A stretch of 49,446 nt of DNA, taken from the IMG/VR virus record IMGVR_UViG_2563366799_000006, one strand, 5' to 3'. Below, in pieces: positions 1-37,000 of the stretch. The position numbers were made by a program, and so were the translations under genes. Position 1 is the stretch's first letter. The number at the start of each line of letters is the position of its first letter. The notes under the pieces were generated by a model. The model ran no database searches. It saw nothing but the letters and a program-made list of their open reading frames with translations, and was not told where the DNA came from. This stretch comes from a virus. Its lineage: Duplodnaviria; Heunggongvirae; Uroviricota; Caudoviricetes.

Positions 1-204
1 TCAGTTAATTGGCTGTTTCACACCTTCCCACTCTTTGACTGACTCCGACTTCCAGCGGTTAGGATTACCGGGAAAGTCCGGGGCGGGGAACGGCTTCGCA
101 AAACCCCGCGGCATCGTGTCTGTGCTTTGCCATGACCAAAGGGTTTTACGTGAGATTTTGTATCGACTGGTCAGGTCTGACGTCAGCAAAATATCATCCA
201 TCAT
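1..204 (-). CDS. Excisionase/AlpA-like small DNA-binding protein (putative Xis)
   Basis: 67-aa ORF whose stop is the first codon of the window; GGAG RBS upstream of tandem ATG ATG; small basic protein at the distal end of the leftward early operon where xis normally sits. Confidence 0.45.
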   Translation of the reverse strand: MMDDILLTSDLTSRYKISRKTLWSWQSTDTMPRGFAKPFPAPDFPGNPNRWKSESVKEWEGVKQPIN

Positions 205-246
205 TTTTCTCCAATGGCCCGAACTGGGCCATTTCCAAAAGTAATA

Positions 247-489
247 TCAAGAAACCTGACCAGGCAACGCGCGCAACCGGCGCATACCTGTCATCGCCGT
301 GGCCACGTAGCTAGCCTTACGGTTCACTACCTCCACCCAGACCTTCATACCTTCAACTCTCACCGTGTACGTCTCTTTCATCTTGCTGCGGCCATAGTCG
401 CCGTAACGTTCTGCATGAGTGGCCAGTGCTATGTCGCATGCCTTACGCGCTAACGGGGATTGCTGGTTGCCTCGGTTAATCAGTCGCAT
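247..489 (-). CDS. Hypothetical early protein (ORF track gives longer form 247..558)
   Basis: ORF 247..558; internal ATG at 489 has an AGAAGG RBS and avoids a long overlap with the upstream gene, so the shorter form is preferred. Confidence 0.35.
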   Translation of the reverse strand: MRLINRGNQQSPLARKACDIALATHAERYGDYGRSKMKETYTVRVEGMKVWVEVVNRKASYVATAMTGMRRLRALPGQVS

Positions 490-679
490 GGTCACCGCCT
501 TCTGGATTGGATGGTTGACGGAAAACCGCTCGGGACGGCGACCAATCGCAATATGCATCGGTTTCGGTATGCCCGAAAATTGCCTTACAGCGACGGATAT
601 GGGCGCAGTCGCCGCAGGTCTTACCCTTCGGGAGTTGCATTTTATCGGGGTCTGCCGGGTTATAATTTAGCTCAGTCAT
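476..679 (-). CDS. Hypothetical Cys-rich small protein (CGDC...C...C)
   Basis: 67-aa ORF with GGAGG RBS 6 nt upstream; start overlaps the stop of the upstream gene (coupling); four Cys in a zinc-binding-like spacing. Confidence 0.45.
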   Translation of the reverse strand: MTELNYNPADPDKMQLPKGKTCGDCAHIRRCKAIFGHTETDAYCDWSPSRAVFRQPSNPEGGDHATD

Positions 680-1028
680 TCCAGGCCTCCAGCTCGTTCT
701 GAATCTCTTCGTCTATTTCGTCGTTGCTGGCCTCTTCATTGAGGTAGCTCAGTGCTTCTTTCCTGTACTGCTCACGACGGCTGCTGTCGTACCAAACTGA
801 GAATTCTGGAGACCAGCCACGGTCATCGCCGTTTTCAGCAAAAAAATCATGCATTGCGTTGTTATAGGCCAGGCTCTCTACCATGCATTCAGCAGTTGTC
901 AGGGCGCATTCCCGGATGTAACCGCGAAGGTGGTGTTTGCGCCACCAAGGACTTACTTTCGAATCGCAACGTCCTTTGAACTCAATTTCCCAGCGGCGGA
1001 TGCAGCGTGCGTTTAAAGATTTACTCAT
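672..1028 (-). CDS. Hypothetical early protein with acidic C-terminus
   Basis: 118-aa ORF directly downstream of recT in the same orientation. Confidence 0.5.
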   Translation of the reverse strand: MSKSLNARCIRRWEIEFKGRCDSKVSPWWRKHHLRGYIRECALTTAECMVESLAYNNAMHDFFAENGDDRGWSPEFSVWYDSSRREQYRKEALSYLNEEASNDEIDEEIQNELEAWND

Positions 1029-1062
1029 CTCGTTACCGGGAGGGTTCGCCCTCCCGCCTCCC

Positions 1063-2154
1063 TTAGGCCACGTATTCCGGTTTCATATCCGCCAAGGTGA
1101 TGCTGAACTGATCGTGCAGTTCGTCGCCCAGATGACGTTTCGCCGTTGCAAGAACTCGCTCAACTTCCCCAAACCGTTCAGCTGCATCCGGTTCATCCGG
1201 AGACGGCAGGGAGTTGATCGCGGCTTCAACCTTGTTACGTGAATCAACCAGGTAGTAGCGCTTCACTGCCTTATTCTTCAGCTCGGTGAACAGGGCAGAT
1301 CCGAGCGTGGCCTTCGCGCTTTCGATATCAGCACGCAGTGCTTTGGCGCTATCAACATCCTGTGCTGCCTCGATGCGCTCGCGGAAATCATCGGCAAGAG
1401 CGTCGATATTTACCGACGATTCGTGTGCGCTTTGCGTAGTTGTGACGGTGTCACCTGCGATTTCAGCAACGCTCATTCGTTGGGCTGAGCCAGGGTTAAT
1501 AACTTTTTCTTCTCGTTCTTCGACTTCATCGGCACTGTAAACACCAAGAATCACATCAGGGCAGTACAAGCGAGCCCAGCGCTTTACCGCGAGATAAGCG
1601 AGCTGCTGACGCGGATCACTTGCCCATAGTGTCGAATTACGAACCTGAGCCTGAGAAAGCATGAGTACCAGTTCGCGTGGCTCATCCTCGCCTTTCATCG
1701 TTGCCCACACACGAATTCCTACACCGGCCTCATCCTTTAAATCCCAACCGGGCGCGATGTACTTATTGCCTTTAGAACTGGTTCTCTCTACAAATCGACC
1801 AATGATGTTTTCCCATGGGCCAAACCAATCGTAATGAAGGCGATCTTTTGTAGGCGACATGTTGGTAACAACCGCATTAACCAGTTGAGCTTCGTAACCC
1901 AACACTCCGCTATTACCGACGATGTGGGTCTTCTGAGCTACGGCAAAGGGGTCCATACCCCATCGTGCGGCCTGCATGACCACAGCCATGCAGGCATCTG
2001 GTTTTCCGCGGAAGTGGTCAGGTACAAAAGCGCCACTATTTGCCATCACTGTCGACAAGGTGCGTAGGCGGTCGAAAAGTTCCCCATTAGTCAAAATTGA
2101 GATGTTATCGATCATTTGCGTCTTGTTTTCGTTGGTAGTAATTGCAGTAGACAT
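1063..2154 (-). CDS. recT: RecT-family single-strand annealing recombinase
   Basis: 363-aa ORF starting 12 bp after the stop of the large nuclease gene upstream (recE-recT arrangement as in Rac); sequence recalls RecT/Red-beta annealing proteins; family assignment from memory. Confidence 0.65.
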   Translation of the reverse strand: MSTAITTNENKTQMIDNISILTNGELFDRLRTLSTVMANSGAFVPDHFRGKPDACMAVVMQAARWGMDPFAVAQKTHIVGNSGVLGYEAQLVNAVVTNMSPTKDRLHYDWFGPWENIIGRFVERTSSKGNKYIAPGWDLKDEAGVGIRVWATMKGEDEPRELVLMLSQAQVRNSTLWASDPRQQLAYLAVKRWARLYCPDVILGVYSADEVEEREEKVINPGSAQRMSVAEIAGDTVTTTQSAHESSVNIDALADDFRERIEAAQDVDSAKALRADIESAKATLGSALFTELKNKAVKRYYLVDSRNKVEAAINSLPSPDEPDAAERFGEVERVLATAKRHLGDELHDQFSITLADMKPEYVA

Positions 2155-2166
2155 GTTCTTTTCCCC

Positions 2167-4977
2167 TTATGCCTGAGTACGCAGCGCTTCAAGGCGGCGC
2201 AGGTCGAAGTCGTTCAGTTCGTCGGTGTAATCAGCGGTGATCGGCGCTGGCCATTCGCCAGTGTCAAAGCCGGTAGCGATAGCGCGCATCGCCTTGCGGT
2301 ACTCGAGCATGCCCAGCTCTAGCAGTTCAGCGGATGCCTCGATGATGGCGATCCAGTGGTAGTTCTCGTCTTTGTTGACGAAAATCCAGAAGAACTGGTC
2401 AAGTGCCGCGGTCTCGCAATACATGGCGGCGCTCAGGTGATAGTCACGGTCGATGATTTCCCGGTGCAGTTTGGCGCGCAGACCTTCCTGCTTAATGTTC
2501 CACATGCTGATGGTTTTAAGGTCGGCACCGATGCGTACCCCGTCCAAGTCGATCTCAAGGTCAGGACGCACGCGGACTTCAAGTCCGGTTTCGTCGTCAA
2601 AGCCAAAATAGCTCACCTCAACAGCGCGGCTCGGATGCTGAAGCAGCATCCCGGCGGTTGGGTGCTTTAGCAGGGCTTTCTGAATGGCCAGTGCGGTGCT
2701 CAGCTGCTGGCGGGTGACCAGCACTTTCCCATGCGGATTCTCGCGCCACGCATCCAACAACTCGTCGGCGAATACGGCTTCCGGATTAACAGACTTCACG
2801 GCCTGAATCAGGTCTGATTTGGTACCGGACACTTTCAGTGGTTGGGGCTTCTGCGCCTCCTGTGCAACCAAGTCAGGATTGATGATTGCCAGCTGCTCGA
2901 GCAGCGCGTCACGGCTACCGCTGGTTTTCACCTGCGGCGGCAGGGTGGCGTTGTACTCTTTGATGCAGGCTTTCATCGCCGCTGCGGTCTGCTTCTGGTC
3001 CGCTTCGATCCGCTGGTACTCTTCTGGCAGCGACATGTAGCTCTGGCCAGTTTCCTCGACTGAACCACCCAGTGGCACCTGAGCAGGCAGTGTGGCGTTG
3101 TATTCTTCCAACAACGCTTTGATGTCGTCGGCGCTCAATTGCGCTGGCAGGCTGGCGTTGTACTCATCGATAAACGCGCGGATTGTTGCCGTTGTGGTGA
3201 ACGCGCCTTCCGGGATCATCGGTTCAACGCTGAACTCTTCATCAAGCTGCTCTGGCTGCAACGCAAGGCCGTGCACCAGGTTACCCATGTCCAGTACCGG
3301 AGAACGCTCTTTGGTGATCGTTTTGGCAACGTGGCGCGCATTGAAGTACATCAGCGATACACGCGCATCTTTCACCTGGGTTGAGCTGATACCGTTCGCT
3401 GCGTGATAAACCTCGTTCGGCAACCCTTCATAGCGGCCTGGCTCAAAGTAAGCAGGGTAAACAACAGCCGGTTCGTCAGAATGAGATTCTGGCTCGGTTT
3501 GTGCCGCAACTGGTTCAGTTTGGTTTACAGAATCGCTGTTTTGGCTAACAGAATCCGCATTCTGGTTTACATCGGCCTGCTGGCCGGTATGTGACTCTTC
3601 ACCAGTTTCCAGACTGCTTTCTCCTGACTGCACTTCATCACCAGCCTGTTCTTCATCACTGACAGTTTCTTCCATCTGCACATTGCTGGTGGTTTCCTCA
3701 TTAAGTGGTGAACGGTCATCTGTTTGTGTTTGTTGATCACCCATCAGGCCATCAATGGAGAATACGCCGTTGCCCATGTTGGCGATTTGTGGCTGTTTAG
3801 CAGCTGTTTTCTGCTCTGCAGCGACCTGCTCATTAAACTCATTTTCCCAACTGACGTCCGGCGCATGACCAGCATCAGCCAGCGTTTCTTCTGAGGGGTT
3901 TGAGTGGTCATTTTCGGTTAGATTGGCATTGATATATGCCCGCAACCGCCCAGGAAAGTTAACCAATTCGGATGATGTGCCGCGGATGAGTGCAAAGATG
4001 GCGGCGCGTGAATAGTCCAGGATGCCAGCGGTTTTGCGCAGCGCCTCAGACCATTCGCTGAACGGACTTTCTTTCTTGCTGACAATCTCTTTAGCGCGGC
4101 GGTAGACCCCACCAGGTATGTCGTAGATATTGAAATCCATTGGCAAGGTGGCCAGCGCAATTTCAACATCCAGAGTGTCCAGTGTGTGGACGTAGTCGGT
4201 ATTGCGATCGGTCTTATTTCCACCGCCAGCATTGGTTTTGACGTCAGTGCGTTGAATCTGCACAACACGGTTGCCTTTCTGCCATTCCTTGACCAGCAGG
4301 CCACGGTCGATGTAATCAGTGTTGAACCACACCGTCAGGAACTGGATAACTGTTGCCAGTTCCGGTTTTTTACCGTCGACAGGGAAGGCTTTCTTAACGG
4401 CATTCACGACTTTATGGATATCGTGCTCAATGGCTTTTTTGAATGCTTCCACATTCTCAGCAGCCAGCAGCAGGTTTTGGGCGTACGCGTTATCAGTGTC
4501 CATCTCAAGGCGGACAATCTCGTTTTTCTGACCAGCGTCGACGTGATAGAGATATTCACCATCACCGATGAACTGAGCCAGTACGCGCTGACGGAATGGC
4601 AGGGTGGCAACGACGATCAGGTTCGGCTGCTCTGACTGCTGAGATTCTTCTGCGGTGCTGTCTTCAGTATCCGCGTCGTCGACAGACTCATCTTCAGCCT
4701 GTTGTTTAACATTCCAGGTGCGCTGGTCTTCAGCCAGTTCGTAACGATCGCACCATGTGAAATCAACTTCGCCTTCTTCTGGCAGGTCGTTGTACACCGG
4801 GAAATCAGTGCGAATAGGTTTGGCGTAGTCCTTACCACGGCCGGTTTCGATGCCTGCATCTTCCAGTGCAACATCCAGCTGCAGGTTGGCGCGAGCCTCG
4901 GTTTTCGCAGTGAACCAGACCACTGCATCTTGTTTTCCGGATTTCTGAGTGGCTTTAACCACATTAAAGAATTCCAT
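2167..4977 (-). CDS. recE: RecE-like exonuclease VIII (C-terminal PD-(D/E)xK nuclease domain, acidic linker, internal repeats)
   Basis: 936-aa ORF; C-terminal region has RPD...GADLK, a PD-(D/E)xK-like motif; long D/E/S/Q-rich low-complexity linker; three copies of an EYNA(S/T)LP(A/P)QV peptide motif; immediately upstream of recT. Confidence 0.7.
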   Translation of the reverse strand: MEFFNVVKATQKSGKQDAVVWFTAKTEARANLQLDVALEDAGIETGRGKDYAKPIRTDFPVYNDLPEEGEVDFTWCDRYELAEDQRTWNVKQQAEDESVDDADTEDSTAEESQQSEQPNLIVVATLPFRQRVLAQFIGDGEYLYHVDAGQKNEIVRLEMDTDNAYAQNLLLAAENVEAFKKAIEHDIHKVVNAVKKAFPVDGKKPELATVIQFLTVWFNTDYIDRGLLVKEWQKGNRVVQIQRTDVKTNAGGGNKTDRNTDYVHTLDTLDVEIALATLPMDFNIYDIPGGVYRRAKEIVSKKESPFSEWSEALRKTAGILDYSRAAIFALIRGTSSELVNFPGRLRAYINANLTENDHSNPSEETLADAGHAPDVSWENEFNEQVAAEQKTAAKQPQIANMGNGVFSIDGLMGDQQTQTDDRSPLNEETTSNVQMEETVSDEEQAGDEVQSGESSLETGEESHTGQQADVNQNADSVSQNSDSVNQTEPVAAQTEPESHSDEPAVVYPAYFEPGRYEGLPNEVYHAANGISSTQVKDARVSLMYFNARHVAKTITKERSPVLDMGNLVHGLALQPEQLDEEFSVEPMIPEGAFTTTATIRAFIDEYNASLPAQLSADDIKALLEEYNATLPAQVPLGGSVEETGQSYMSLPEEYQRIEADQKQTAAAMKACIKEYNATLPPQVKTSGSRDALLEQLAIINPDLVAQEAQKPQPLKVSGTKSDLIQAVKSVNPEAVFADELLDAWRENPHGKVLVTRQQLSTALAIQKALLKHPTAGMLLQHPSRAVEVSYFGFDDETGLEVRVRPDLEIDLDGVRIGADLKTISMWNIKQEGLRAKLHREIIDRDYHLSAAMYCETAALDQFFWIFVNKDENYHWIAIIEASAELLELGMLEYRKAMRAIATGFDTGEWPAPITADYTDELNDFDLRRLEALRTQA
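2931..3178. repeat. Three imperfect direct repeats (~22-bp core GGCAGGNTGGCGTTGTAYTC) inside recE
   Basis: Copies at about 2931-2969, 3080-3118 and 3140-3178 on the + strand; they encode the repeated EYNA(S/T)LP(A/P)QV motif. Confidence 0.6.
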
Positions 4978-5116
4978 GTGAGATCCTCATTTTTGGGTGT
5001 TAGAATCCCCGGGCCATTGATAGCGCCCATTGGGTTAACTTTGGTTTTGATGTTGTTTCCGGTGTAACTTTGGTCGGTGCCACCGGACGTAGATCCCGCC
5101 TTGCGCGGGGTGTACG

Positions 5117-5278
5117 TTAGCCTTCGTGAGCCATCTGGTCGTGCGAAGCGCAACGTTTGGAGCAATACTCTTTCTCTTTGCGCGCCAGCAGTGAGCCGTT
5201 GCGATAGAGAAGGGTGCTTTTGATTACCTCTTCCGGTTTAACCGGTTTGCTGCAATAACCGCATTTCTTGTCTTGCAT
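5117..5278 (-). CDS. Small zinc-ribbon-like protein (53 aa, CGYC...C...C), below ORF-track cutoff
   Basis: ATG at 5276-5278 (minus), stop TAA at 5117-5119; hand translation MQDKKCGYCSKPVKPEEVIKSTLLYRNGSLLARKEKEYCSKRCASHDQMAHEG; position matches the small genes between recE and kil in Rac. Confidence 0.35.
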   Translation of the reverse strand: MQDKKCGYCSKPVKPEEVIKSTLLYRNGSLLARKEKEYCSKRCASHDQMAHEG

Positions 5279-5289
5279 GACACTCTCCG

Positions 5290-5655
5290 TTAATGGCTGA
5301 GGCCATTCCCCAGACCGTTCAGATAAACTTCAACCAGCAAATCCCTGGTGTAAGTCATCTCAACGCCGCGATGCAGATACAAACGACCACGAGCATTGGC
5401 TGATGCCGTCCAGGTTGAATCCTTGTGTTTGACGAGCATCCCCGGCTGAACTGCGCCGCGGTTTACTGTCTGTGTACCGTAGTGCTGATGAACCATGATG
5501 TTCTCCACTATTGCTGAGTGAACTTCGCTGGTGGTGCCGTGGTGCTGATCTTCACAGTTGAGCGTTTTAACTCTGCAGTTCACCACCGCGAAACCCACTC
5601 TTATGTGCCTGTCTTTTATCCACTTCAGGCTCGGTGGTATGCTGGTAGTTCTCAC
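5290..5655 (-). CDS. Hypothetical early protein (Kil-position); a shorter 5290..5496 form has a better RBS
   Basis: ORF-track 121-aa form uses a GTG with no RBS; internal ATG at 5494-5496 is preceded by a GGAGA RBS. Confidence 0.4.
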   Translation of the reverse strand: MRTTSIPPSLKWIKDRHIRVGFAVVNCRVKTLNCEDQHHGTTSEVHSAIVENIMVHQHYGTQTVNRGAVQPGMLVKHKDSTWTASANARGRLYLHRGVEMTYTRDLLVEVYLNGLGNGLSH

Positions 5656-5675
5656 ACAGCCAGCAAGGAATAACT

Positions 5676-5969
5676 ATGAAATCAGTAACTAAGCCATGTC
5701 CTATTTGTGGTGAAGATTCTTTGTCTTTTAACCAGACAAATCAGTTGGTTAACATCAAAGTAAAACCACCAACTATTCGTGAAGTTCCATCAGTGGTTTA
5801 CGTTTGCGATACTCACGGATGGTTTTCACTTTCAGAACAGATAAACAGACTCGTCACATCTAATGACGACCCTGCGGCTAAGCAAAAACTGGCTGTTATT
5901 GTCAAAGAGCGATATGTGCCGGAACAGGATCAGCCGTTAGCCCTGAAACCTATTGAGTCGCTCGCATAA
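5676..5969 (+). CDS. Hypothetical zinc-ribbon protein (CPICG...C.THG)
   Basis: 97-aa ORF with AAGGA RBS; rightward gene inside the leftward early region; 3' end overlaps the 3' end of 5950..6219 by 20 bp. Confidence 0.5.
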   Translation: MKSVTKPCPICGEDSLSFNQTNQLVNIKVKPPTIREVPSVVYVCDTHGWFSLSEQINRLVTSNDDPAAKQKLAVIVKERYVPEQDQPLALKPIESLA

Positions 5970-6219
5970 GGTCTTTTCGGCTCTCGCTGCGATATCCCAG
6001 GCGGTACATTTTCACGTAGGCTTTGCCGCGAGGAATGCCGCCTGTTTTGTTGAATCTCTGCTGGGCGCGGCGATGGTGTTTTGCTTCAGGGCTGTTTGAA
6101 CCTTTCCCGCCATTCGATCGAGAACTTGGGAGTTGCATTGGCTTTTGGCGTGAATAGAATTTACGTGCCCAGCATGCTCCAAAGCCGATCATGCCTGTTT
6201 TCTTCGTATTACCTTTCAT
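5950..6219 (-). CDS. Small basic protein, first ORF downstream of the putative PL (N-like antiterminator candidate by position only)
   Basis: 89-aa ORF, GAGGGG RBS, Arg/Lys-rich; lies about 70 nt downstream of the predicted PL start. Confidence 0.4.
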   Translation of the reverse strand: MKGNTKKTGMIGFGACWARKFYSRQKPMQLPSSRSNGGKGSNSPEAKHHRRAQQRFNKTGGIPRGKAYVKMYRLGYRSESRKDLMRATQ

Positions 6220-6298
6220 CTCAATCCCCTCGTTTGCCCTTGTCGCCAGGCCAGCGGAACGTTTGAACTTGATGCGCTTAGTGTTTCTCGATGGGGTG

Positions 6299-6340
6299 AT
6301 GATAGCTAAGGCGATTTATTTTATCAATCGCTTAAACGAT
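6299..6340 (-). promoter_or_regulatory. Putative PL promoter with overlapping OL operator
   Basis: Minus strand reads TTGATA (6322-6327), 17-nt spacer, TATCAT (6299-6304); palindrome ATCGC-TTAA-ACGAT at 6327-6340 matches the OR operator consensus ATCGC-N4-GCGAT. Confidence 0.45.
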
Positions 6341-6663
6341 AATATTGTGATTTTGCCGATTATTATTTGATTTATAAAGTGATTTATTTTTGTATGAGAT
6401 GCGTGATATGCTCAAAAAAACACCAGGCGGGGATATTGATATGGGTTTAGGAATGGATATGTCACGTGATGAGCTGCTGGAAGATCGCGCTGCTTTCATG
6501 GCTGGCGAGATTGGCGGTGCAGTTGTCGAGTAGATAATCAACGGTGTGGTGATAAGTCGAGATGCGATAGTAGATAGCTTGGAGACTAAGCGTCGCGCGG
6601 TTGGAAATGTGATTCACAAAGGAGTGTTGTGGGATGTCACTGCTATGGTGAGAAAAGGAATAT

Positions 6664-6686
6664 GAAAACCGGCATAATGCCGGTTT
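6664..6686 (-). terminator. Hairpin terminator at the end of the cI operon
   Basis: Inverted repeat AACCGGCA-taa-TGCCGGTT followed by a T-rich run on the minus strand, overlapping the stop of 6685..7317. Confidence 0.45.
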
Positions 6687-7317
6687 ACTTTGATTTTTCC
6701 TGTTGGTGAAGTACTCGTGGAGTAGTTGGTTCTTGAGGTAATTGGATGATAACAGGTTGCTGCGCTACTGGTTGAACTACGGGCGGATCACTCTTCAAGG
6801 CAGAAACAAGACTAGGTAATGCAACGACAACCGCAATGATAACGCCAAAAATAGCAAGCCTAGTGGAAATACCTGATTGAATACCGCCAATCGCAGTGTT
6901 TATTCCTGTAATTTGCCCTTGTATACCTTCGAATTTGCCATTGATGGCTTTTACATCCCCATCAACGCTATCCATTTTCCCTTCAATTTTAGAAGAAATA
7001 GAGCTAATAGATGAATTGAGCGATGCCAGCTGAACGTTCATATTCTCGCGTGACAAAGCCATTTCAGCTCTAATCGAAGATGCAATGGACTCCATCTCCG
7101 CCTTATTGGCAGCTAGAAGTGCTTGCATTTCTTCACGGCTAACTGATGACATTTCATTTCCCCCATCAGTTTCATTAGCTTCATCTGTTGATTTGATAAA
7201 GTTAGTATACATTTCTTCTTTATCGACGCGTAGTCTGTTTTGAACATTGGGGTACAGGTCATCTTTATCAATGCCAGAACCGCAGTCTGGGACAGCTTTG
7301 AGAGATGGGCCCATCAC
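6685..7317 (-). CDS. Coiled-coil protein with a single C-terminal transmembrane helix (rexB/sieB position, no recognised family)
   Basis: 210-aa ORF; long heptad-like Ser/Ile/Gly-rich region then hydrophobic segment LAIFGVIIAVVVALPSLVSAL; start overlaps the stop of 7314..7700 (ATGA). Confidence 0.6.
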   Translation of the reverse strand: MMGPSLKAVPDCGSGIDKDDLYPNVQNRLRVDKEEMYTNFIKSTDEANETDGGNEMSSVSREEMQALLAANKAEMESIASSIRAEMALSRENMNVQLASLNSSISSISSKIEGKMDSVDGDVKAINGKFEGIQGQITGINTAIGGIQSGISTRLAIFGVIIAVVVALPSLVSALKSDPPVVQPVAQQPVIIQLPQEPTTPRVLHQQEKSK

Positions 7318-7700
7318 TTCCCATCCTCTCCTTGATCTTCTTTTCTTTTATTAATCAGTGTCCTGGCTTTTTTATAAGAAAAAAGCAGTACATGTGCGCA
7401 GTGATCACACGTGATTCGAAATAGTGGCATACCGCCAGGATATGTCACAGCACTATCAGTATCAGGTTTGTATTGTGCATAACTAAGTGTTTCGATCACA
7501 TGATGTTTTGGCTGATTTTCTTCTACATCAAGATCAAAGGCACCAACTACAGACCATGACTGGTTCCCGCAGATTTGGCAAGTTATTGGTTTTTTGAATG
7601 AATTTATGAAATCAATGAACTCATCCGCTGTGATAATCTCGGAGTTTGCTTCACTATGAAATAATTCCGATTTCATAATTATGATCCTTTTCTGGGCCAA
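7314..7700 (-). CDS. Zinc-ribbon-like protein (CQIC...CDHC), first gene downstream of cI (rexA position, no recognised family)
   Basis: ORF-track 128 aa; likely start is the ATG at 7674-7676 (120 aa) with AAGGA RBS; 20 bp downstream of the cI stop, same strand. Confidence 0.6.
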   Translation of the reverse strand: MAQKRIIIMKSELFHSEANSEIITADEFIDFINSFKKPITCQICGNQSWSVVGAFDLDVEENQPKHHVIETLSYAQYKPDTDSAVTYPGGMPLFRITCDHCAHVLLFSYKKARTLINKRKEDQGEDGK

Positions 7701-7720
7701 AGTAGATAAAAAGTACAGTT

Positions 7721-8404
7721 TTACAATCGGTTATACTTTATTGATTCATGAATCAATGCCTTACCCATTACGTAGAGTTGATCCTGATTACCTTCGTTAA
7801 TGTACCACTTCTCATAAGCTGAGTTATCAGACAAAACTGCCAACCTATCGCCCTGCATCTGCAAGCGCTTCACATGGAAATGTTGTCCGAAAACGAACGC
7901 ATAAACACCGTCGACCTTGAAGTTTCTTACAGAAATATCGAAAAACAATCTGTCACCAGACTGTATAGTTGGACACATGCTGTCGCCATCGACCGTCATT
8001 ACTTTTACGTCTTCCTGAGAACGATTTCCGAAGAGTGAACGAGCGTGTTCGGTTGTGAACTCAATGGCGTGTAGAACCTCAACAAACTCAGAAATCATGA
8101 AAGAACCTGGCCCCGCGCTAAATGTCAGGTCAAGTACGTCAACTCTGAATATGTTTGAGTCTTTTTTTGTCGCGGTAATGGGAGGCGGTAGCTGGCCATC
8201 GTTACGCATCGGTCCGGATCCCGTGGAAAGCCATTCAGGGCGAACATTGAGAACAGAAGCTATCTCGACCGTTTTTCTTGAGCTTGATGCACCATTTAGC
8301 AGCTTGTTAACACTTGACTGTGCCATGCCAACTGCCTTAGCTAGCTTGCCCTGTGTATAACCCGCCTCATTCATTGCGCGATCTAATCGCTCAGAAAAAC
8401 TCAT
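7721..8404 (-). CDS. cI: CI-type prophage repressor (XRE HTH + S24 LexA-like peptidase)
   Basis: 227 aa; N-terminal HTH (QGKLAKAVGMAQSSVNKL); Ala-Gly cleavage site (FSAGPG); Ser in GDSM and Lys in HVKRL; divergent from cro. Confidence 0.9.
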   Translation of the reverse strand: MSFSERLDRAMNEAGYTQGKLAKAVGMAQSSVNKLLNGASSSRKTVEIASVLNVRPEWLSTGSGPMRNDGQLPPPITATKKDSNIFRVDVLDLTFSAGPGSFMISEFVEVLHAIEFTTEHARSLFGNRSQEDVKVMTVDGDSMCPTIQSGDRLFFDISVRNFKVDGVYAFVFGQHFHVKRLQMQGDRLAVLSDNSAYEKWYINEGNQDQLYVMGKALIHESIKYNRL

Positions 8405-8437
8405 TAAAGATACCCCCTAATAACCTTCATAAATATT

Positions 8438-8506
8438 ATCGCCACAGCGATTAATAAGCAAAAAATCGCATAGGCGATTGACATTCGTTAAAGCGATAAA
8501 CATAAT
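8438..8506 (+). promoter_or_regulatory. OR operators and PR promoter
   Basis: Palindromes ATCGC-CACA-GCGAT (8438-8451) and ATCGC-ATAG-GCGAT (8466-8478); TTGACA at 8478-8483, 17-nt spacer, CATAAT at 8501-8506; AGGAG RBS and cro ATG follow. Confidence 0.6.
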
Positions 8507-8533
8507 CAACCTAAATTGATAGAAGGAGCGATT

Positions 8534-8764
8534 ATGAAAAACCCTGCTGTAGAAAAAGCGATTGCAATCGCCGGTAGTCAGAAAGAGCTAGCGAAGCGAT
8601 GTGGTAAGGCCCAATCCACGGTCTGTGACTGGTTAAATGGGAAAAAACAAATCTCCCCGATCCATGTTCCTGTTTTGGTAAAGGCAAGCGAAGGACAGAT
8701 TCAAGCTCATGAATTCCGTCCCGACCTTCCTGAATTGTTTCCGCATCCACATTCAGCCGCCTGA
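8534..8764 (+). CDS. cro: Cro-like HTH regulator (ORF track 8516..8764 uses an upstream TTG)
   Basis: ATG at 8534 with AGGAG RBS; HTH GSQKELAKRCGKAQSTVCDWLNGKK; divergent from cI. Confidence 0.75.
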   Translation: MKNPAVEKAIAIAGSQKELAKRCGKAQSTVCDWLNGKKQISPIHVPVLVKASEGQIQAHEFRPDLPELFPHPHSAA

Positions 8765-8795
8765 CCGGCGGCGCTAACCATCAAGGGAAAGCACT

Positions 8796-9071
8796 ATGCA
8801 ATCACTTACGTTTTACCAGGATACAGGATTGCCGCAGCAGGCGGTGATAAATCGTGCTCAAGCGTGCAAGGGACCTAGCCATGAAGATATTCGTGATGCC
8901 GTTCGCTCATGGGCGGGTGTAGATGGTCAGGATGTCGTTTCTGCTCTGATCATCGAAGAGTACCAGGCGCAGGGTGGTGATGACATCACTTTCCCTGATG
9001 ATCTCTGCCGAAAGCGCCAGAAGCTGTTTCGCTTCCTGGACAACCACTTCAACAGCGAGCGTTACCGCTAG
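8796..9071 (+). CDS. YdaT-like (cII-position) protein, N-terminal part ending at an in-frame amber codon
   Basis: 91-aa ORF ends at TAG 9069-9071; the same frame stays open to 9335; YdaT similarity is from memory. Confidence 0.5.
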   Translation: MQSLTFYQDTGLPQQAVINRAQACKGPSHEDIRDAVRSWAGVDGQDVVSALIIEEYQAQGGDDITFPDDLCRKRQKLFRFLDNHFNSERYR

Positions 9072-9152
9072 AACGTCCGCCAGCTGACTCCGGCAATCCT
9101 CGCTGTCCTGCCGATTGAATACCGCAATCGTCTGCTACCAGAAGACAACGTA

Positions 9153-9335
9153 ATGGCTCGTCTGGCAAGGCTGGAGAAGGAAACCAGCGAAGCGAAGATT
9201 GCTGTCGCAATGGATGCGCCACGTCATCAGAAGCTGAAAGAGTTGAGCGAGGGGATCGTGGAGATGTATCGCGTTGACCCTGGGTTAACCGGTCCGTTGA
9301 TGGAAATAGTGCAGATTATGCTGGGGGCTATATGA
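9153..9335 (+). CDS. Downstream part of the same reading frame as 8796..9071 (possible pseudogene fragment)
   Basis: Same frame as 8796..9071, separated by a single TAG; no convincing RBS before the ATG at 9153. Confidence 0.3.
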   Translation: MARLARLEKETSEAKIAVAMDAPRHQKLKELSEGIVEMYRVDPGLTGPLMEIVQIMLGAI

Positions 9336-34059: not shown

Positions 34060-37000
34060 TGACAGACCAGATCGCCTCGATTACTTTGCGGGCCGATGTT
34101 TCTGACCTGAAAACAGCCAGCAACGAACTGGATAAACTCGGCCAGGCGGCGGCCGGTGCTGTAGATAAAGCGGATGATTTAAATAGCGTGTTCCGCGCTG
34201 GGGCTGAATCTGCGAAGCAAGGCAGCGAAGGACTCAAGGAGCAGCAGAACGCGCTCAAAGGGCTGCTGGAGAATATCGACCCGGTTACCAAGGCCTTAAA
34301 CCGCCTGGATGAGCAGCAAGAATCGCTGCGGAAATTCCAGGCCAAAGGTTTCCTGGATACCGATACCTTTCAGGCATACAACAAAATCCTGGATGACACC
34401 CGCCTCAAGCTGACCGACACCGGAGAAGCCGCGGCGCGTGCTCAGGCCGAATTAGCCGCTACCCAGGCGGCAGAGAAGCAGTCCGCAGCGTTAAAGAACC
34501 TTCTTGGATCCATCGACCCGACTATCCGCGCGTTCAATTCGTTGGATGAACAGCACGCACAGCTGGTGGAACATTTCGAAGCTGGGCGCATTAACGGTGC
34601 TCAGTTCGAGCACTTCAACACAATCCTTAACCAGACGCGTGAGCGCCTCTCTGGTGTCGCTGACGTACTACCAGAGGCGCTATCCCGGCAGGAAGCTGCT
34701 GCCCGGCGCGCTGGAATCTCCGTTGGTCAGTACAGCGCAGCAATGCGCACGCTTCCGGCGCAATTCACCGATATCGCCACGCAGCTGGCTGGCGGTCAGT
34801 CGCCGTTCCTGATTCTGCTGCAACAGGGCGGGCAGATTAAAGACCAGTTCGGCTCGGTTCAGGGGGCGCTGTCCGGCGTCGGCGAATACATCCGCAGCAT
34901 GGCTGGGATGATTAACCCTACCACAATCGCACTTGGTGGGCTGATTGGCACGATCGGCCTGCTGGCTGCCGCAGCGTATAACTCCTCGGAGCAATTTGAG
35001 CAGGTGGCACGCTCTGTCATCATGATGGGTGGGGCTGGCTTCTCCTCAATGCAGCAGCTCAACCAGGCCGCTGAGGAAGTGGCTGGCAAGACGAATACAT
35101 CGATTAGCTCCACCGTCGATACGCTGGTTACGTTGAACGATACTGGCAAATATACCGCAAGCCAGATGAAGCAGGTCGCAACGACCATCACCCTCATGGG
35201 TAAGGCCGGAAATGATACCAAAGCGGCAATAAGCGACTTCGGAAAGATTGTCAGCGATCCGGTTAAAGGGCTTGCCAGCCTCAATGAACAATATGGTTTC
35301 GTTGATGAAGCCATGATCAAGCACATTATCCAGCTACGTAAGCAGAAGGGTGAGCAGGCGGCTGTTACCGAAGCTATTGAGCTGTTTGCAGGCGTCATGG
35401 CAAAGCGCGCAGAGGAGACCAACAAAGCGACCGATAATATCGGTCAAACGTGGGAAAACCTTAAAAAGAGCGCTTCTGACACCTTTGGCGATATAGGTAT
35501 TACCGTGCGCGCATGGGGAAACCAGATCATTGATATTTTCGAACTGGTTAAATCCTCGATCAAAGACTTGTTCCTCAATATCACCTCTCTGGACGCCAAG
35601 TTCACCAGCACCATCGCTGGCTGGGCAGACAAAATCCCGGGTGGCGGTGCGCTGGCTAATTTCCTCGGCATGGACGTTGAGGCAATGAAAAAGGCTGGAG
35701 CGGAGGCGGACAAAGAGATTGAGGCGAACAAAAAACGCTATAACGAGCTTTGGAAGCGCGTCACTGCGCCTAACGCACAGGCAAACTATGAGGCTGAAGC
35801 GCGAGGGTCTAACGTAAAAGGTGATGGAGGAACAAGTCGAGAATCAAGAGACGCAGTCTCGAAGCTTGCACAAGACTCAGCCAAAAAGACCAAAGAGGCA
35901 AAAGCCACGCTGGATGCTGGCGATCGCACTCTTGAGAACTACCGCGCCCAGGCCAGAACGTTAACTGAAACACTCGAAACGTTGCGCAAGACTGGGGAGA
36001 CTCAGGTCAGATATACCGAGTTCAGCAAACAGCAATCCCATTTTGCCGAGCTGGACGAGGCTGCTAAGACCCGCGCGCTGACCGCACAGGAGAAATCTCT
36101 TCTATCGAACCGAGAGGCCATCCTCAACGCCGCCAAAGTTGTGGATCAGAAAAATAAGGAAGTCGAGGCCCAGCAGAAGATTAACGGCCTGGCGCAGCAG
36201 GCAAATAAGTATGTTACGCAGATGACTGAAAAGTCTGAGGCATTGCGTAGCGGGGCTGGGTTAAGTAGTCGCATGGCCCAGCGAATGACCGAAGAGGCGC
36301 AGCTTCGGCAGGGCTGGCTAAATGGCGGTGGTAATCTAGAGGATGCTGGCTACGAGAAAGAGCTGGCAGCTCTTCGTAACTACTACGCCGAAGAGGATAA
36401 GCTACGGGGTGACTGGAAAGCAGGGGCAGTTAGTGGCTGGAATGAATATCTTGAGGCCGCCACGAATACCTATGACGCCGTGAAGAACGTCGCCAGCTCC
36501 ACGCTGACCGGCTTGAGCGACATGCTGACTGAGCTGATGATCACTGGCAAAGCATCAGTTAAAGAATTCGGTAAATCCATGCTCAAGATGATCCTGGATG
36601 TTACGAACCGCCTCATGGTTGCCTACGCAGTGCAGGCCGCAATGGGATGGGTAAACGGAGGGGCAGGAGGTGGCAACACACCCGGTGGAGCATACGCGAA
36701 CGCTGCTGCAGGCGTAACGTTCAACGCTAAAGGCGGAGTCTATGAATCGCCGGGCCTAAGCAAGTATGTGAATGGCGTCTACGATTCTCCTCAGTACTTC
36801 ACGTTCCAGGGGGCATCTAAGTTTGCGAAAGGGGGGGTCTTTGGAGAGGCAGGGCCGGAAGCTATTATGCCGTTAGCTAAAGATTCAGCAGGGCGGTTGG
36901 GTGTACGCGCCCAAGGAGGTGGAAGTATTGCTCCTGTAATTAATACCGTCATTAATGTTGAGGCTAATGGTAATGTATCAACCAGCACATCGTCGGATGG

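What the first reader, a model, noticed from the sequence alone, without database searches (positions are those of the whole stretch)
6290..6345. OL/PL: operator-like palindrome overlapping a leftward promoter between the cI cassette and the early-left genes
ATCGC-TTAA-ACGAT at 6327-6340 matches the OR consensus with one mismatch and overlaps a minus-strand TTGATA-N17-TATCAT promoter. This mirrors lambda PL/OL and would drive the leftward operon that includes the RecE/RecT module and xis.
Basis: seen in the sequence. Interest (0 to 1): 0.35.

Follow-up and report, generated by a model that had tools for sequence, protein, structure and literature searches.

The report
Leftward early promoter with two repressor operators
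This is the ordinary "PL/OL" switch of a lambda-like E. coli prophage: a leftward promoter covered by two binding sites for the phage repressor. It keeps the recombination, kil and excision genes silent until the repressor is destroyed.

Summary

**What is there**
- ATCGCTTAAACGAT (6327-6340) is one mismatch from the 14-bp palindrome ATCGC-N4-GCGAT, which occurs twice perfectly in OR (8438-8451, 8465-8478).
- It abuts a minus-strand TTGATA-N17-TATCAT promoter (6327-6299). This is one of only three promoter matches of at least 10/12 in the 49-kb window.

- A second operator, ATAGCTAAGGCGAT (6302-6315), covers the -10.
- Two such sites in this 240-nt spacer arise in 1 of 200,000 shuffles.

**Comparative support**
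- Six related viral contigs carry the same repressor recognition helix. All 20 half-site bases are invariant in them, while the central N4 bases and the flanks vary.
- The same scaffold recurs in phage HK639, where GenBank annotates a "putative pL", and in other relatives. Their half-sites (ATAAC, ATAGC, ACAAC) change together with the repressor helix. In the scaffold, OL2's last T starts the -35 and OL1's last TAT starts the -10, with 25-bp spacing.
- A prophage with an unrelated repressor keeps the transcribed leader but replaces exactly this block.

**Amendments**
- There are two operators, not one, and no convincing third.
- I found no nut or put element in the leader.
- The first DNA downstream is a rare 620-bp inserted cassette, followed by kil, ydaE, recE, recT and xis.

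**Verdict:** an ordinary new member of a known kind. No binding or transcript data exist.

The parts
6327..6340 (.). OL2 operator, ATCGCTTAAACGAT (ATCGTTTAAGCGAT on the minus strand). It has one mismatch to ATCGC-N4-GCGAT. Its terminal base 6327 is also the first T of the PL -35.
   Evidence: The half-sites are invariant in 6 related loci while the N4 bases vary. The geometry is the same in HK639 and other specificity classes.
6302..6315 (.). OL1 operator, ATAGCTAAGGCGAT (ATCGCCTTAGCTAT on the minus strand). It has one mismatch. Its last three bases on the minus strand (TAT, 6304-6302) are the first three of the PL -10.
   Evidence: The centre-to-centre distance to OL2 is 25 bp.
6322..6327 (-). 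PL -35 hexamer, TTGATA
   Evidence: Invariant in related loci.
6299..6304 (-). PL -10 hexamer, TATCAT (TATTAT in locus L064)
6220..6292 (-). Predicted PL transcript start (A at about 6292, inferred from the -10 spacing) and the untranslated leader. The start-region motif CCCATCGA is shared with HK639 and other relatives. The leader holds no boxA/boxB and no put-like element.
6347..6360 (.). A degenerate half-site only (ATCGG on the minus strand), at the position where HK639 has OL3. It is not a convincing operator.
   Evidence: The partner half is variable and unmatched.
7721..8404 (-). cI repressor, 227 aa. It has a 434-like HTH N-terminal domain with helix-3 residues Q29-S-S-V-N-K34, and an S24 self-cleaving C-terminal domain.
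8438..8497 (.). OR operators that define the consensus: 8438-8451 (perfect), 8465-8478 (perfect) and 8484-8497 (TTCGTTAAAGCGAT, 2 mismatches, inside the PR spacer).
8478..8506 (+). PR promoter, TTGACA-N17-CATAAT (11/12), driving cro (8534-8764).
1..6219 (-). Leftward operon presumed to be driven by PL: orf89 (5950-6219), kil (5290-5496), ydaE (5117-5278), recE (2167-4977), recT (1063-2154), orf118, orf67, DUF4060 (247-558) and xis (1-204).
   Evidence: Only one weak minus-strand terminator-like site lies in it (5869-5851).
6666..6686 (.). Bidirectional hairpin terminator that closes the cI operon and the convergent pseudo-orf68. It marks the right edge of the OL spacer unit.

Best explanation
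The feature is the early-left promoter-operator region (PL/OL) of a Rac-like/lambdoid E. coli prophage.

A sigma-70 promoter, TTGATA(6327-6322)-N17-TATCAT(6304-6299), fires leftwards from about 6292. Two 14-bp operators of the ATCGC-N4-GCGAT type sit on it. OL2 (6327-6340) shares its last base with the -35. OL1 (6302-6315) fills the spacer and shares TAT with the -10.

In the lysogen, dimers of the 434-like, LexA-type cI repressor (7721-8404) are inferred to occupy both sites and exclude RNA polymerase. They probably bind cooperatively, given the 25-bp spacing. After SOS-induced self-cleavage of cI, PL would transcribe orf89, then kil, ydaE, recE, recT, small ORFs and xis. Cro, which reads the same operators, would later turn PL down.

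Shown here: the sequences, their statistical excess, co-inheritance with the repressor's recognition helix, half-site conservation, and positional homology to HK639 pL.

Inferred from the lambda/434 paradigm: binding, cooperativity, the start site, SOS induction, and the extent of the transcript.
For: - **Sequence and statistics.**: the promoter scores 10/12, and two 1-mismatch operators lie on its -35 and -10; it is one of only 3 promoter matches of at least 10/12 in 49 kb; two or more operator matches in the local 240 nt arose in 1 of 200,000 shuffles.
- **OR defines the consensus.**: OR carries two perfect copies and one 2-mismatch copy.
- **Same-specificity relatives.**: six IMG/VR loci have cI 89-93% identical with an identical recognition helix. 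They keep both OL sites at varying distances from cI. None of the 20 half-site positions varies, against 2 of 8 N4 positions and 51 of 176 other aligned positions overall.
- **Other specificity classes.**: HK639 (cI 72% identical, GenBank 'putative pL') and relatives keep the same scaffold. Their half-sites are ATAAC, ATAGC or ACAAC, and these track changes in helix 3.
- **Immunity swap.**: prophage L003, with an unrelated repressor, keeps the leader at about 95% identity up to the -10. It replaces exactly 6305-6400 with operators that match its own OR.
- **Module boundary.**: three E. coli genomes (hits H5-H7) match the query only rightwards from about 6233. The one I read, L002, shows that the DNA missing to the left is the cassette.
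- **Repressor type.**: the N-terminal domain aligns to the 434 repressor DNA-binding domain, whose operators are also 14 bp. S24 peptidase domain.
- **Downstream genes.**: the downstream genes are kil, RecE, RecT and excisionase.
Against: - There is no experimental evidence of binding, repression or a transcript 5' end.
- A sigma-70 consensus match alone is weak evidence in A+T-rich DNA. In the local scan the count of matches of at least 9/12 was not above the shuffles.
- Both OL sites carry a mismatch, and there are two rather than the three of lambda, 434 and HK639.
- No antitermination element was found, so I cannot show that transcription reaches xis about 6 kb away.
- A weak terminator-like hairpin (5869-5851) and a convergent gene (orf97) lie in the path.
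- The conservation test rests on few, closely related sequences.
Confidence: 0.85

Rival explanations
1. The operators are real, but the PL transcript is short. It would express only the inserted cassette gene orf89, and perhaps kil. Intrinsic or Rho-dependent termination, or collision with convergent orf97 transcription, would stop it. recET and xis would then need another promoter or an unidentified antiterminator.
For: No nut or put element was found in the leader. A terminator-like hairpin lies on the minus strand at 5869-5851, and the convergent orf97 lies in the path. Relatives do carry boxA (L005, L008) or an annotated putL-like RNA (HK639), which suggests that antitermination normally matters in this phage group.
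Against: No other minus-strand promoter of at least 9/12 exists between 1 and 6300. The genes are tightly packed on one strand. The hairpin is weak (7 pairs, 3 G-C). In sister prophages without the cassette, PL is followed directly by kil-ydaE-recE.
Confidence: 0.12
2. The two sites serve mainly as the distal partner for long-range cI looping to OR, or as control sites for the divergent rightward orf68 promoter. They would not act as a gate on a leftward promoter.
For: A conserved extended -10-like TGnTATGCT lies at 6404-6412 upstream of orf68 in three immunity types. OL and OR are about 2.1 kb apart, as in lambda.
Against: The sites overlap the minus-strand hexamers base for base. That overlap geometry is conserved across the ATCGC, ATAAC and ATAGC classes, with a 1-bp shift in the ACAAC class. 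The orf68 -10 lies more than 60 bp from OL2, and orf68 is a pseudogene here.
Confidence: 0.03
3. It is a chance palindrome and a chance promoter-like hexamer pair in A+T-rich intergenic DNA.
For: Promoter-like matches of at least 9/12 are no more frequent in the region than in shuffles. About 2.4 operator matches with at most 1 mismatch are expected in 49 kb.
Against: Two sites 25 bp apart in this spacer arose in 1 of 200,000 shuffles. The half-sites are invariant in relatives. They covary with the repressor helix in other phages.
Confidence: 0.01

Closest known systems
Bacteriophage lambda PL/OL
   Same: A leftward sigma-70 promoter lies just beyond the end of the cI operon. It is overlapped by repressor operators of the same consensus as OR, sits about 2 kb from OR, and drives the recombination, kil and xis genes. 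Adjacent operators are spaced about 24-25 bp centre to centre.
   Different: The operators are 14 bp (5-4-5) rather than 17 bp. There are two convincing operators rather than three. No N gene or nutL follows the promoter. The recombination module is RecE/RecT (Rac type), not Exo/Bet.
Escherichia phage HK639 putative pL/OL (GenBank NC_016158, annotated promoter 34386-34414)
   Same: The scaffolds are homologous and align without gaps from OL2 through the start region. OL2's last T is the first T of the -35, OL1's TAT begins the -10, and the spacing is 25 bp. A CCATCGA start-region motif follows. The cI C-terminal domain is nearly identical, and cI is 72% identical overall.
   Different: The half-site is ATAAC rather than ATCGC, and the recognition helix is QPAIQKM rather than QSSVNKL, so the immunity differs. 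HK639 has a third OL site and an annotated putL-like antiterminator RNA downstream; this window has neither.
Phage 434 repressor and its 14-bp operators (PDB 2OR1, 1RPE, 1PER)
   Same: The N-terminal domain of cI aligns with the 434 repressor DNA-binding domain (E = 4e-5). Operators are 14 bp and symmetric, begin with A, and have a non-contacted centre. A sister class in this family uses ACAAC-N4-GTTGT, almost the 434 sequence.
   Different: The half-site is ATCGC rather than ACAA(G/T). The helix-3 residues differ: 434 has Q-Q-S-I-E-Q and this cI has Q-S-S-V-N-K. No structure or binding data exist for this protein.
Rac prophage early-left region (kilR-ydaE-racC-recE-recT)
   Same: The downstream operon content (kil, ydaE, recE, recT, xis) and its orientation relative to the repressor are the same.
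   Different: As far as I recall (not checked here), Rac uses the unrelated, non-cleavable repressor RacR. Here the repressor is a LexA-like cleavable cI with 434-type operators.

Membership tests
Lambdoid PL/OL early-left promoter-operator | A sigma-70-type promoter that points away from cI towards the early-left genes, in the spacer after the cI operon | tested here: met
   TTGATA-N17-TATCAT on the minus strand at 6327-6299 scores 10/12. It is one of 3 such matches in 49 kb.
Lambdoid PL/OL early-left promoter-operator | Multiple operators with the same consensus as OR that overlap the promoter hexamers | tested here: met
   OL1 (6302-6315) and OL2 (6327-6340) are each 1 mismatch from the two perfect OR palindromes. 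They overlap the -10 and the -35.
Lambdoid PL/OL early-left promoter-operator | Belongs to the immunity module: inherited with the repressor specificity and replaced when the repressor is replaced | tested here: met
   The same OL sites occur in all 6 loci with the same helix. Different, self-consistent OL/OR sets occur in HK639, L005, L008, L069 and L003. The identity break with L003 falls exactly at 6305-6400.
Lambdoid PL/OL early-left promoter-operator | Downstream early-left genes for recombination, host killing and excision on the same strand | tested here: met
   kil is phrog_294, RecE is PF06630, RecT is PF03837 and the excisionase is phrog_1553.
Lambdoid PL/OL early-left promoter-operator | Repressor binds the operators and represses the promoter; the transcript starts downstream of the -10 | not testable with these tools
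   This needs EMSA or footprinting, reporter fusions, and 5'-RACE.
Lambda-type N/nut antitermination at PL | boxA plus a boxB hairpin in the PL leader, and an N gene as the first gene | tested here: not met
   No boxA lies between 6292 and 6220. The only boxA-like 9-mer lies at 5911, beyond orf89. No nutR-like boxA with at most 1 mismatch lies right of PR. orf89 has no Pfam match and its PHROG family has unknown function. The relatives L005 and L008 do carry boxA in their leaders.
HK022/HK639 put RNA antitermination at PL | A put-like structured RNA downstream of PL | tested here: not met
   There is no similarity to the HK639 putL-like region. The leader does not fold better than its shuffles, z = +0.7. 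Rfam has no put model, so that search is uninformative.
434-type repressor-operator system | A 434-like HTH domain that recognises 14-bp symmetric operators | tested here: met
   phmmer matches the 434 repressor DNA-binding domain at E = 4e-5 over residues 2-62. The operators are 14-bp 5-4-5 palindromes. Actual recognition was not tested.
HK639 immunity group (same specificity) | The same operator sequence and the same recognition helix | tested here: not met
   The half-sites are ATCGC here and ATAAC in HK639. The helices are QSSVNKL here and QPAIQKM in HK639.

The most novel reading that the evidence does not exclude
The window's cI/operator pair may be one allele of a natural specificity series of 434-like repressors. 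The classes are ACAAC with helix QAAIQK, ATAAC with QPAIQK, ATAGC with QPS(V/I)WK, and ATCGC with QSSVNK. The members sit on a nearly fixed PL scaffold and a near-identical C-terminal domain, so single helix-residue changes would map onto single base changes in the half-site. If so, it is a ready-made system for reading out or re-engineering an HTH recognition code and for building orthogonal repressor-promoter pairs.
Probability: 0.5. Interest if true: 0.35.

Novelty: new member of a known kind. Interest (0 to 1): 0.2.

Why it matters
It fixes the left boundary of the immunity region of this prophage and identifies the control point for its recET, kil and xis genes. It adds an uncharacterised operator specificity (ATCGC-N4-GCGAT) to the 434/HK639-like repressor family. 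The practical value is for prophage annotation and possibly as an orthogonal repressor-promoter pair. It does not change any concept.

Tried and rejected
- **nutL.** I searched for boxA (CGCTCTTTA, up to 2 mismatches) on the PL and PR sides. Nothing lies in the leader. The only hit is CGCTCTTTG at 5911, beyond orf89 and antisense inside orf97. There is no nutR.
- **put RNA.** blastn of the HK639 putL-like region against the leader and the PR side gave only chance words. The leader fold is not better than its shuffles. Rfam reported nothing relevant, but it also failed to flag the putL-like RNA annotated in HK639, so it has no model for it.
- **orf89 as an N analogue.** It is basic and sits in the N position. 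However, it has no Pfam hit, its PHROG has unknown function, tblastn found no match in 50,697 phage records, and sister prophages lack it. I did not pursue it further.
- **A third OL operator at the HK639 OL3 position.** Only a half-site is present, and its partner half varies among relatives. Rejected.
- **Homology of the orf97/orf89 cassette to e14 YmfI/YmfJ.** There is none at the protein level. Only the 70-nt upstream segment is shared.
- **King et al. 2011 (HK639 paper, PMC3187212).** It is not held in the library, so the HK639 pL rests on the GenBank annotation only.
- **Close DNA relatives in the phage collection.** There are none for this immunity region.

Full report
**Where the window comes from.** The immunity region (5900-8800) is 100% identical to prophages in two complete E. 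coli genomes, NZ_LT883142.1 and NZ_LR890349.1. Three further genomes match at 99.8-99.9% from position 6233 rightwards.

RefSeq annotation and my family scans give the following map.
- On the minus strand, right to left: orf89 (5950-6219), kil (5290-5496), ydaE (5117-5278), RecE (2167-4977), RecT (1063-2154), three small ORFs, and an excisionase (1-204).
- The spacer that holds the finding.
- A pseudogene, orf68 (plus strand, 6459-6665), and a bidirectional terminator (6666-6686).
- The cI operon on the minus strand: orf210, orf128 and cI (7721-8404).
- OR/PR, then cro (8534-8764) and a cII/YdaT-like gene.

It is a Rac-like lambdoid prophage with a LexA-type cleavable repressor.

**The observation.** ATCGCTTAAACGAT lies at 6327-6340. 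On the minus strand, TTGATA (6327-6322), 17 nt and TATCAT (6304-6299) score 10/12. The cI-cro spacer holds two perfect ATCGC-N4-GCGAT palindromes (8438-8451, 8465-8478). It also holds a 2-mismatch copy (8484-8497) inside the spacer of PR, TTGACA-N17-CATAAT. So "one mismatch from the OR consensus" is correct.

Of the five sites with at most 1 mismatch in 49 kb, four lie in OL or OR.

**Chance.** Shuffling the local 240 nt 200,000 times gave two or more such sites once. Only three promoter-like matches of at least 10/12 exist in the whole window on both strands, and PR and this site are two of them. The promoter match alone would not be convincing, because matches of at least 9/12 are no commoner here than in shuffles. 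The case rests on the combination and on comparison with relatives.

**Anatomy.** Read on the minus strand, the sequence is ATCGTTTAAGCGA**T**TGATA-aaataa-ATCGCCTTAGC**TAT**CAT-cacccc-A.
- The last base of OL2 is the first T of the -35.
- The last three bases of OL1 are the first three of the -10.
- The operator centres are 25 bp apart.
- The likely start is the A at about 6292. This is inferred from the spacing and is not measured.

**Relatives with the same specificity.** A scan of IMG/VR with the cI protein returned 80 loci. Six of them (L013-L017, L064; cI 89-93% identical) have exactly the recognition-helix segment of the window, LAKAVGMAQSSVNKLLNG.
- All six carry both OL sites, at different distances from cI. 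The accessory genes between cI and OL therefore differ, but the operators travel with the repressor.
- In an alignment of the window with four of them (L013, L014, L017, L064), none of the 20 half-site positions varies.
- By contrast, 2 of 8 central N4 positions, 1 of 8 hexamer-only positions, 16 of 80 upstream positions and 31 of 74 leader positions vary.
- The two "mismatches" (ATCG**T** in OL2, GC**T**AT in OL1) are themselves conserved. They look like tuned features rather than decay.

**Relatives with other specificities.** Phage HK639 cI is 72% identical. The C-terminal domain is almost invariant, and the differences concentrate in the HTH.

HK639 has ATAAC-N4-GTTAT operators, three at OR and three at OL. 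GenBank annotates a "putative pL" at exactly the homologous place. The four PL regions (window, HK639, Enterobacter L005, Mixta L008) align without gaps from OL2 through a shared CCATCGA start-region motif. The operators and hexamers fall in register.

An unbiased scan for this geometry recovered it in every class examined.

| Half-site | Recognition helix | Loci |
|---|---|---|
| ATCGC | QSSVNK | window, L013-L017, L064 |
| ATAAC | QPAIQK | HK639, L007 and about 30 others |
| ATAGC | QPS(V/I)WK | L005, L018, L019, L021, L008 |
| ATAGC/ATACG | QPTIWR | L006, L022, L071 |
| ACAAC | QAAIQK | L065, L069, L073 (24-bp spacing) |

The ATAGC class also has just two OL sites.

**An immunity swap.** E. 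coli prophage L003 has an unrelated XRE-type repressor. It shares the transcribed leader with the window at about 95% identity up to the -10. It then diverges completely across 6305-6400 and carries operators that match its own OR. Similarity resumes at the orf68 promoter. The finding therefore sits exactly at the left edge of the immunity-specific block, as PL/OL should.

**The repressor.** The N-terminal domain aligns with the 434 repressor DNA-binding domain (E = 4e-5). This places Q29-S-S-V-N-K34 in the recognition helix. It also fits the 14-bp operator length, which from memory is also the length of the 434 operators. The C-terminal domain is an S24 peptidase. Its Ala-Gly (SAG/PG), GDSM and VKR motifs are visible in the sequence, so RecA-stimulated self-cleavage is the expected induction route. 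This is inferred.

**Mechanism.** cI dimers on OL1 and OL2 would occlude the -10 and the -35. Loss of cI would release leftward transcription of kil, recET and xis. Cro (YdaS-like HTH) would re-repress. I found no other minus-strand promoter of at least 9/12 between 1 and 6300. Only one weak terminator-like hairpin lies there, at 5869-5851.

**What does not fit lambda.**
- There is no boxA/boxB in the leader and no nutR. There is no similarity to HK639 putL. The leader has no significant fold, and Rfam reports nothing. The relatives L005 and L008 do have a canonical boxA (CGCTCTTTAACAA) in their leaders.
- There is no convincing OL3.
- The first 620 bp downstream (5612-6232) are a cassette. 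It occurs in 2 of 5,426 complete E. coli genomes and is absent from L002, the sister prophage with identical immunity that I read. It holds orf89 and the convergent orf97.

Whether PL transcription reaches xis unaided is therefore the main open point.

**Verdict.** It is a new, uncharacterised specificity within a well-known type of switch. Nothing here would surprise a phage biologist. The natural helix/half-site series is the only aspect with some wider use.

Noticed in passing
window 5612-6232: A 620-bp cassette is inserted between PL and kil. It holds two convergent ORFs that overlap by 20 nt: orf97 (plus strand, 5676-5969; Cys-rich, with a weak Lar-like Pfam hit at E = 0.03) and orf89 (minus strand, 5950-6219; very basic, no Pfam hit). 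It is present in only 2 of 5,426 complete E. coli genomes and is absent from L002, the sister prophage with the same immunity that I read.
   Followed up: partly
window 5601-5670; L093 2501-2569: The 70 nt upstream of orf97 contain TGgTATGCT, an extended -10-like motif. They are 94% identical to the segment upstream of ymfI in prophage e14 of E. coli K-12 and occur in 918 of 5,426 genomes. In e14 a non-homologous convergent, overlapping pair (ymfI/ymfJ) sits in the same place next to the repressor. It looks like a portable promoter/5'-UTR with exchangeable cargo.
   Followed up: partly
window 5899-5911, minus strand: CGCTCTTTGACAA matches 12 of 13 bases of the boxA in the PL leader of relative L008 (CGCTCTTTAACAA). 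It lies downstream of orf89 and antisense inside orf97. A weak terminator-like hairpin follows it at 5869-5851. I did not resolve whether it is chance or a displaced nut-like element.
   Followed up: partly
window 6404-6665: orf68 (plus strand, phrog_3975) is convergent with the cI operon and shares the terminator at 6666-6686. It is a pseudogene here, with TAG at 6531-6533 where L003 has TTG. It is annotated as intact in L003 and L004, and HK639 has a small convergent gene in the same position whose homology I did not test. A TGnTATGCT extended -10-like motif (6404-6412) is conserved upstream of orf68 in three different immunity types.
   Followed up: partly
window 9069-9071: The cII/YdaT-like gene (8796-9335) carries a premature TAG here, where NZ_LT883142.1 has GAG. 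This truncates the protein to 91 of 179 aa. It is a second amber codon in the regulatory region, which suggests a decaying prophage.
   Followed up: yes
window 8559-8572: GCGATTGCAATCGC lies inside cro. It has the operator half-sites in swapped order (GCGAT-N4-ATCGC). The scan also flags it as a terminator-like hairpin on the minus strand. Its significance is unknown.
   Followed up: no
window 8433-8461, minus strand: A weak PRM candidate, TTGCTT-N17-TAATAT (7/12), has the 8438-8451 operator in its spacer and the 8465-8478 operator 3 bp upstream of its -35. This fits repressor-activated cI transcription. I read it by eye only.
   Followed up: no
L005 about 6150-6180; L008 about 6320-6358: The PL leaders of two relatives with ATAGC-type operators contain a canonical boxA (TGCTCATTAACAA, CGCTCTTTAACAA). 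A hairpin follows it in L008. HK639 has a putL-like RNA annotated at the same place. Closely related PL scaffolds are thus coupled to different antitermination systems.
   Followed up: no
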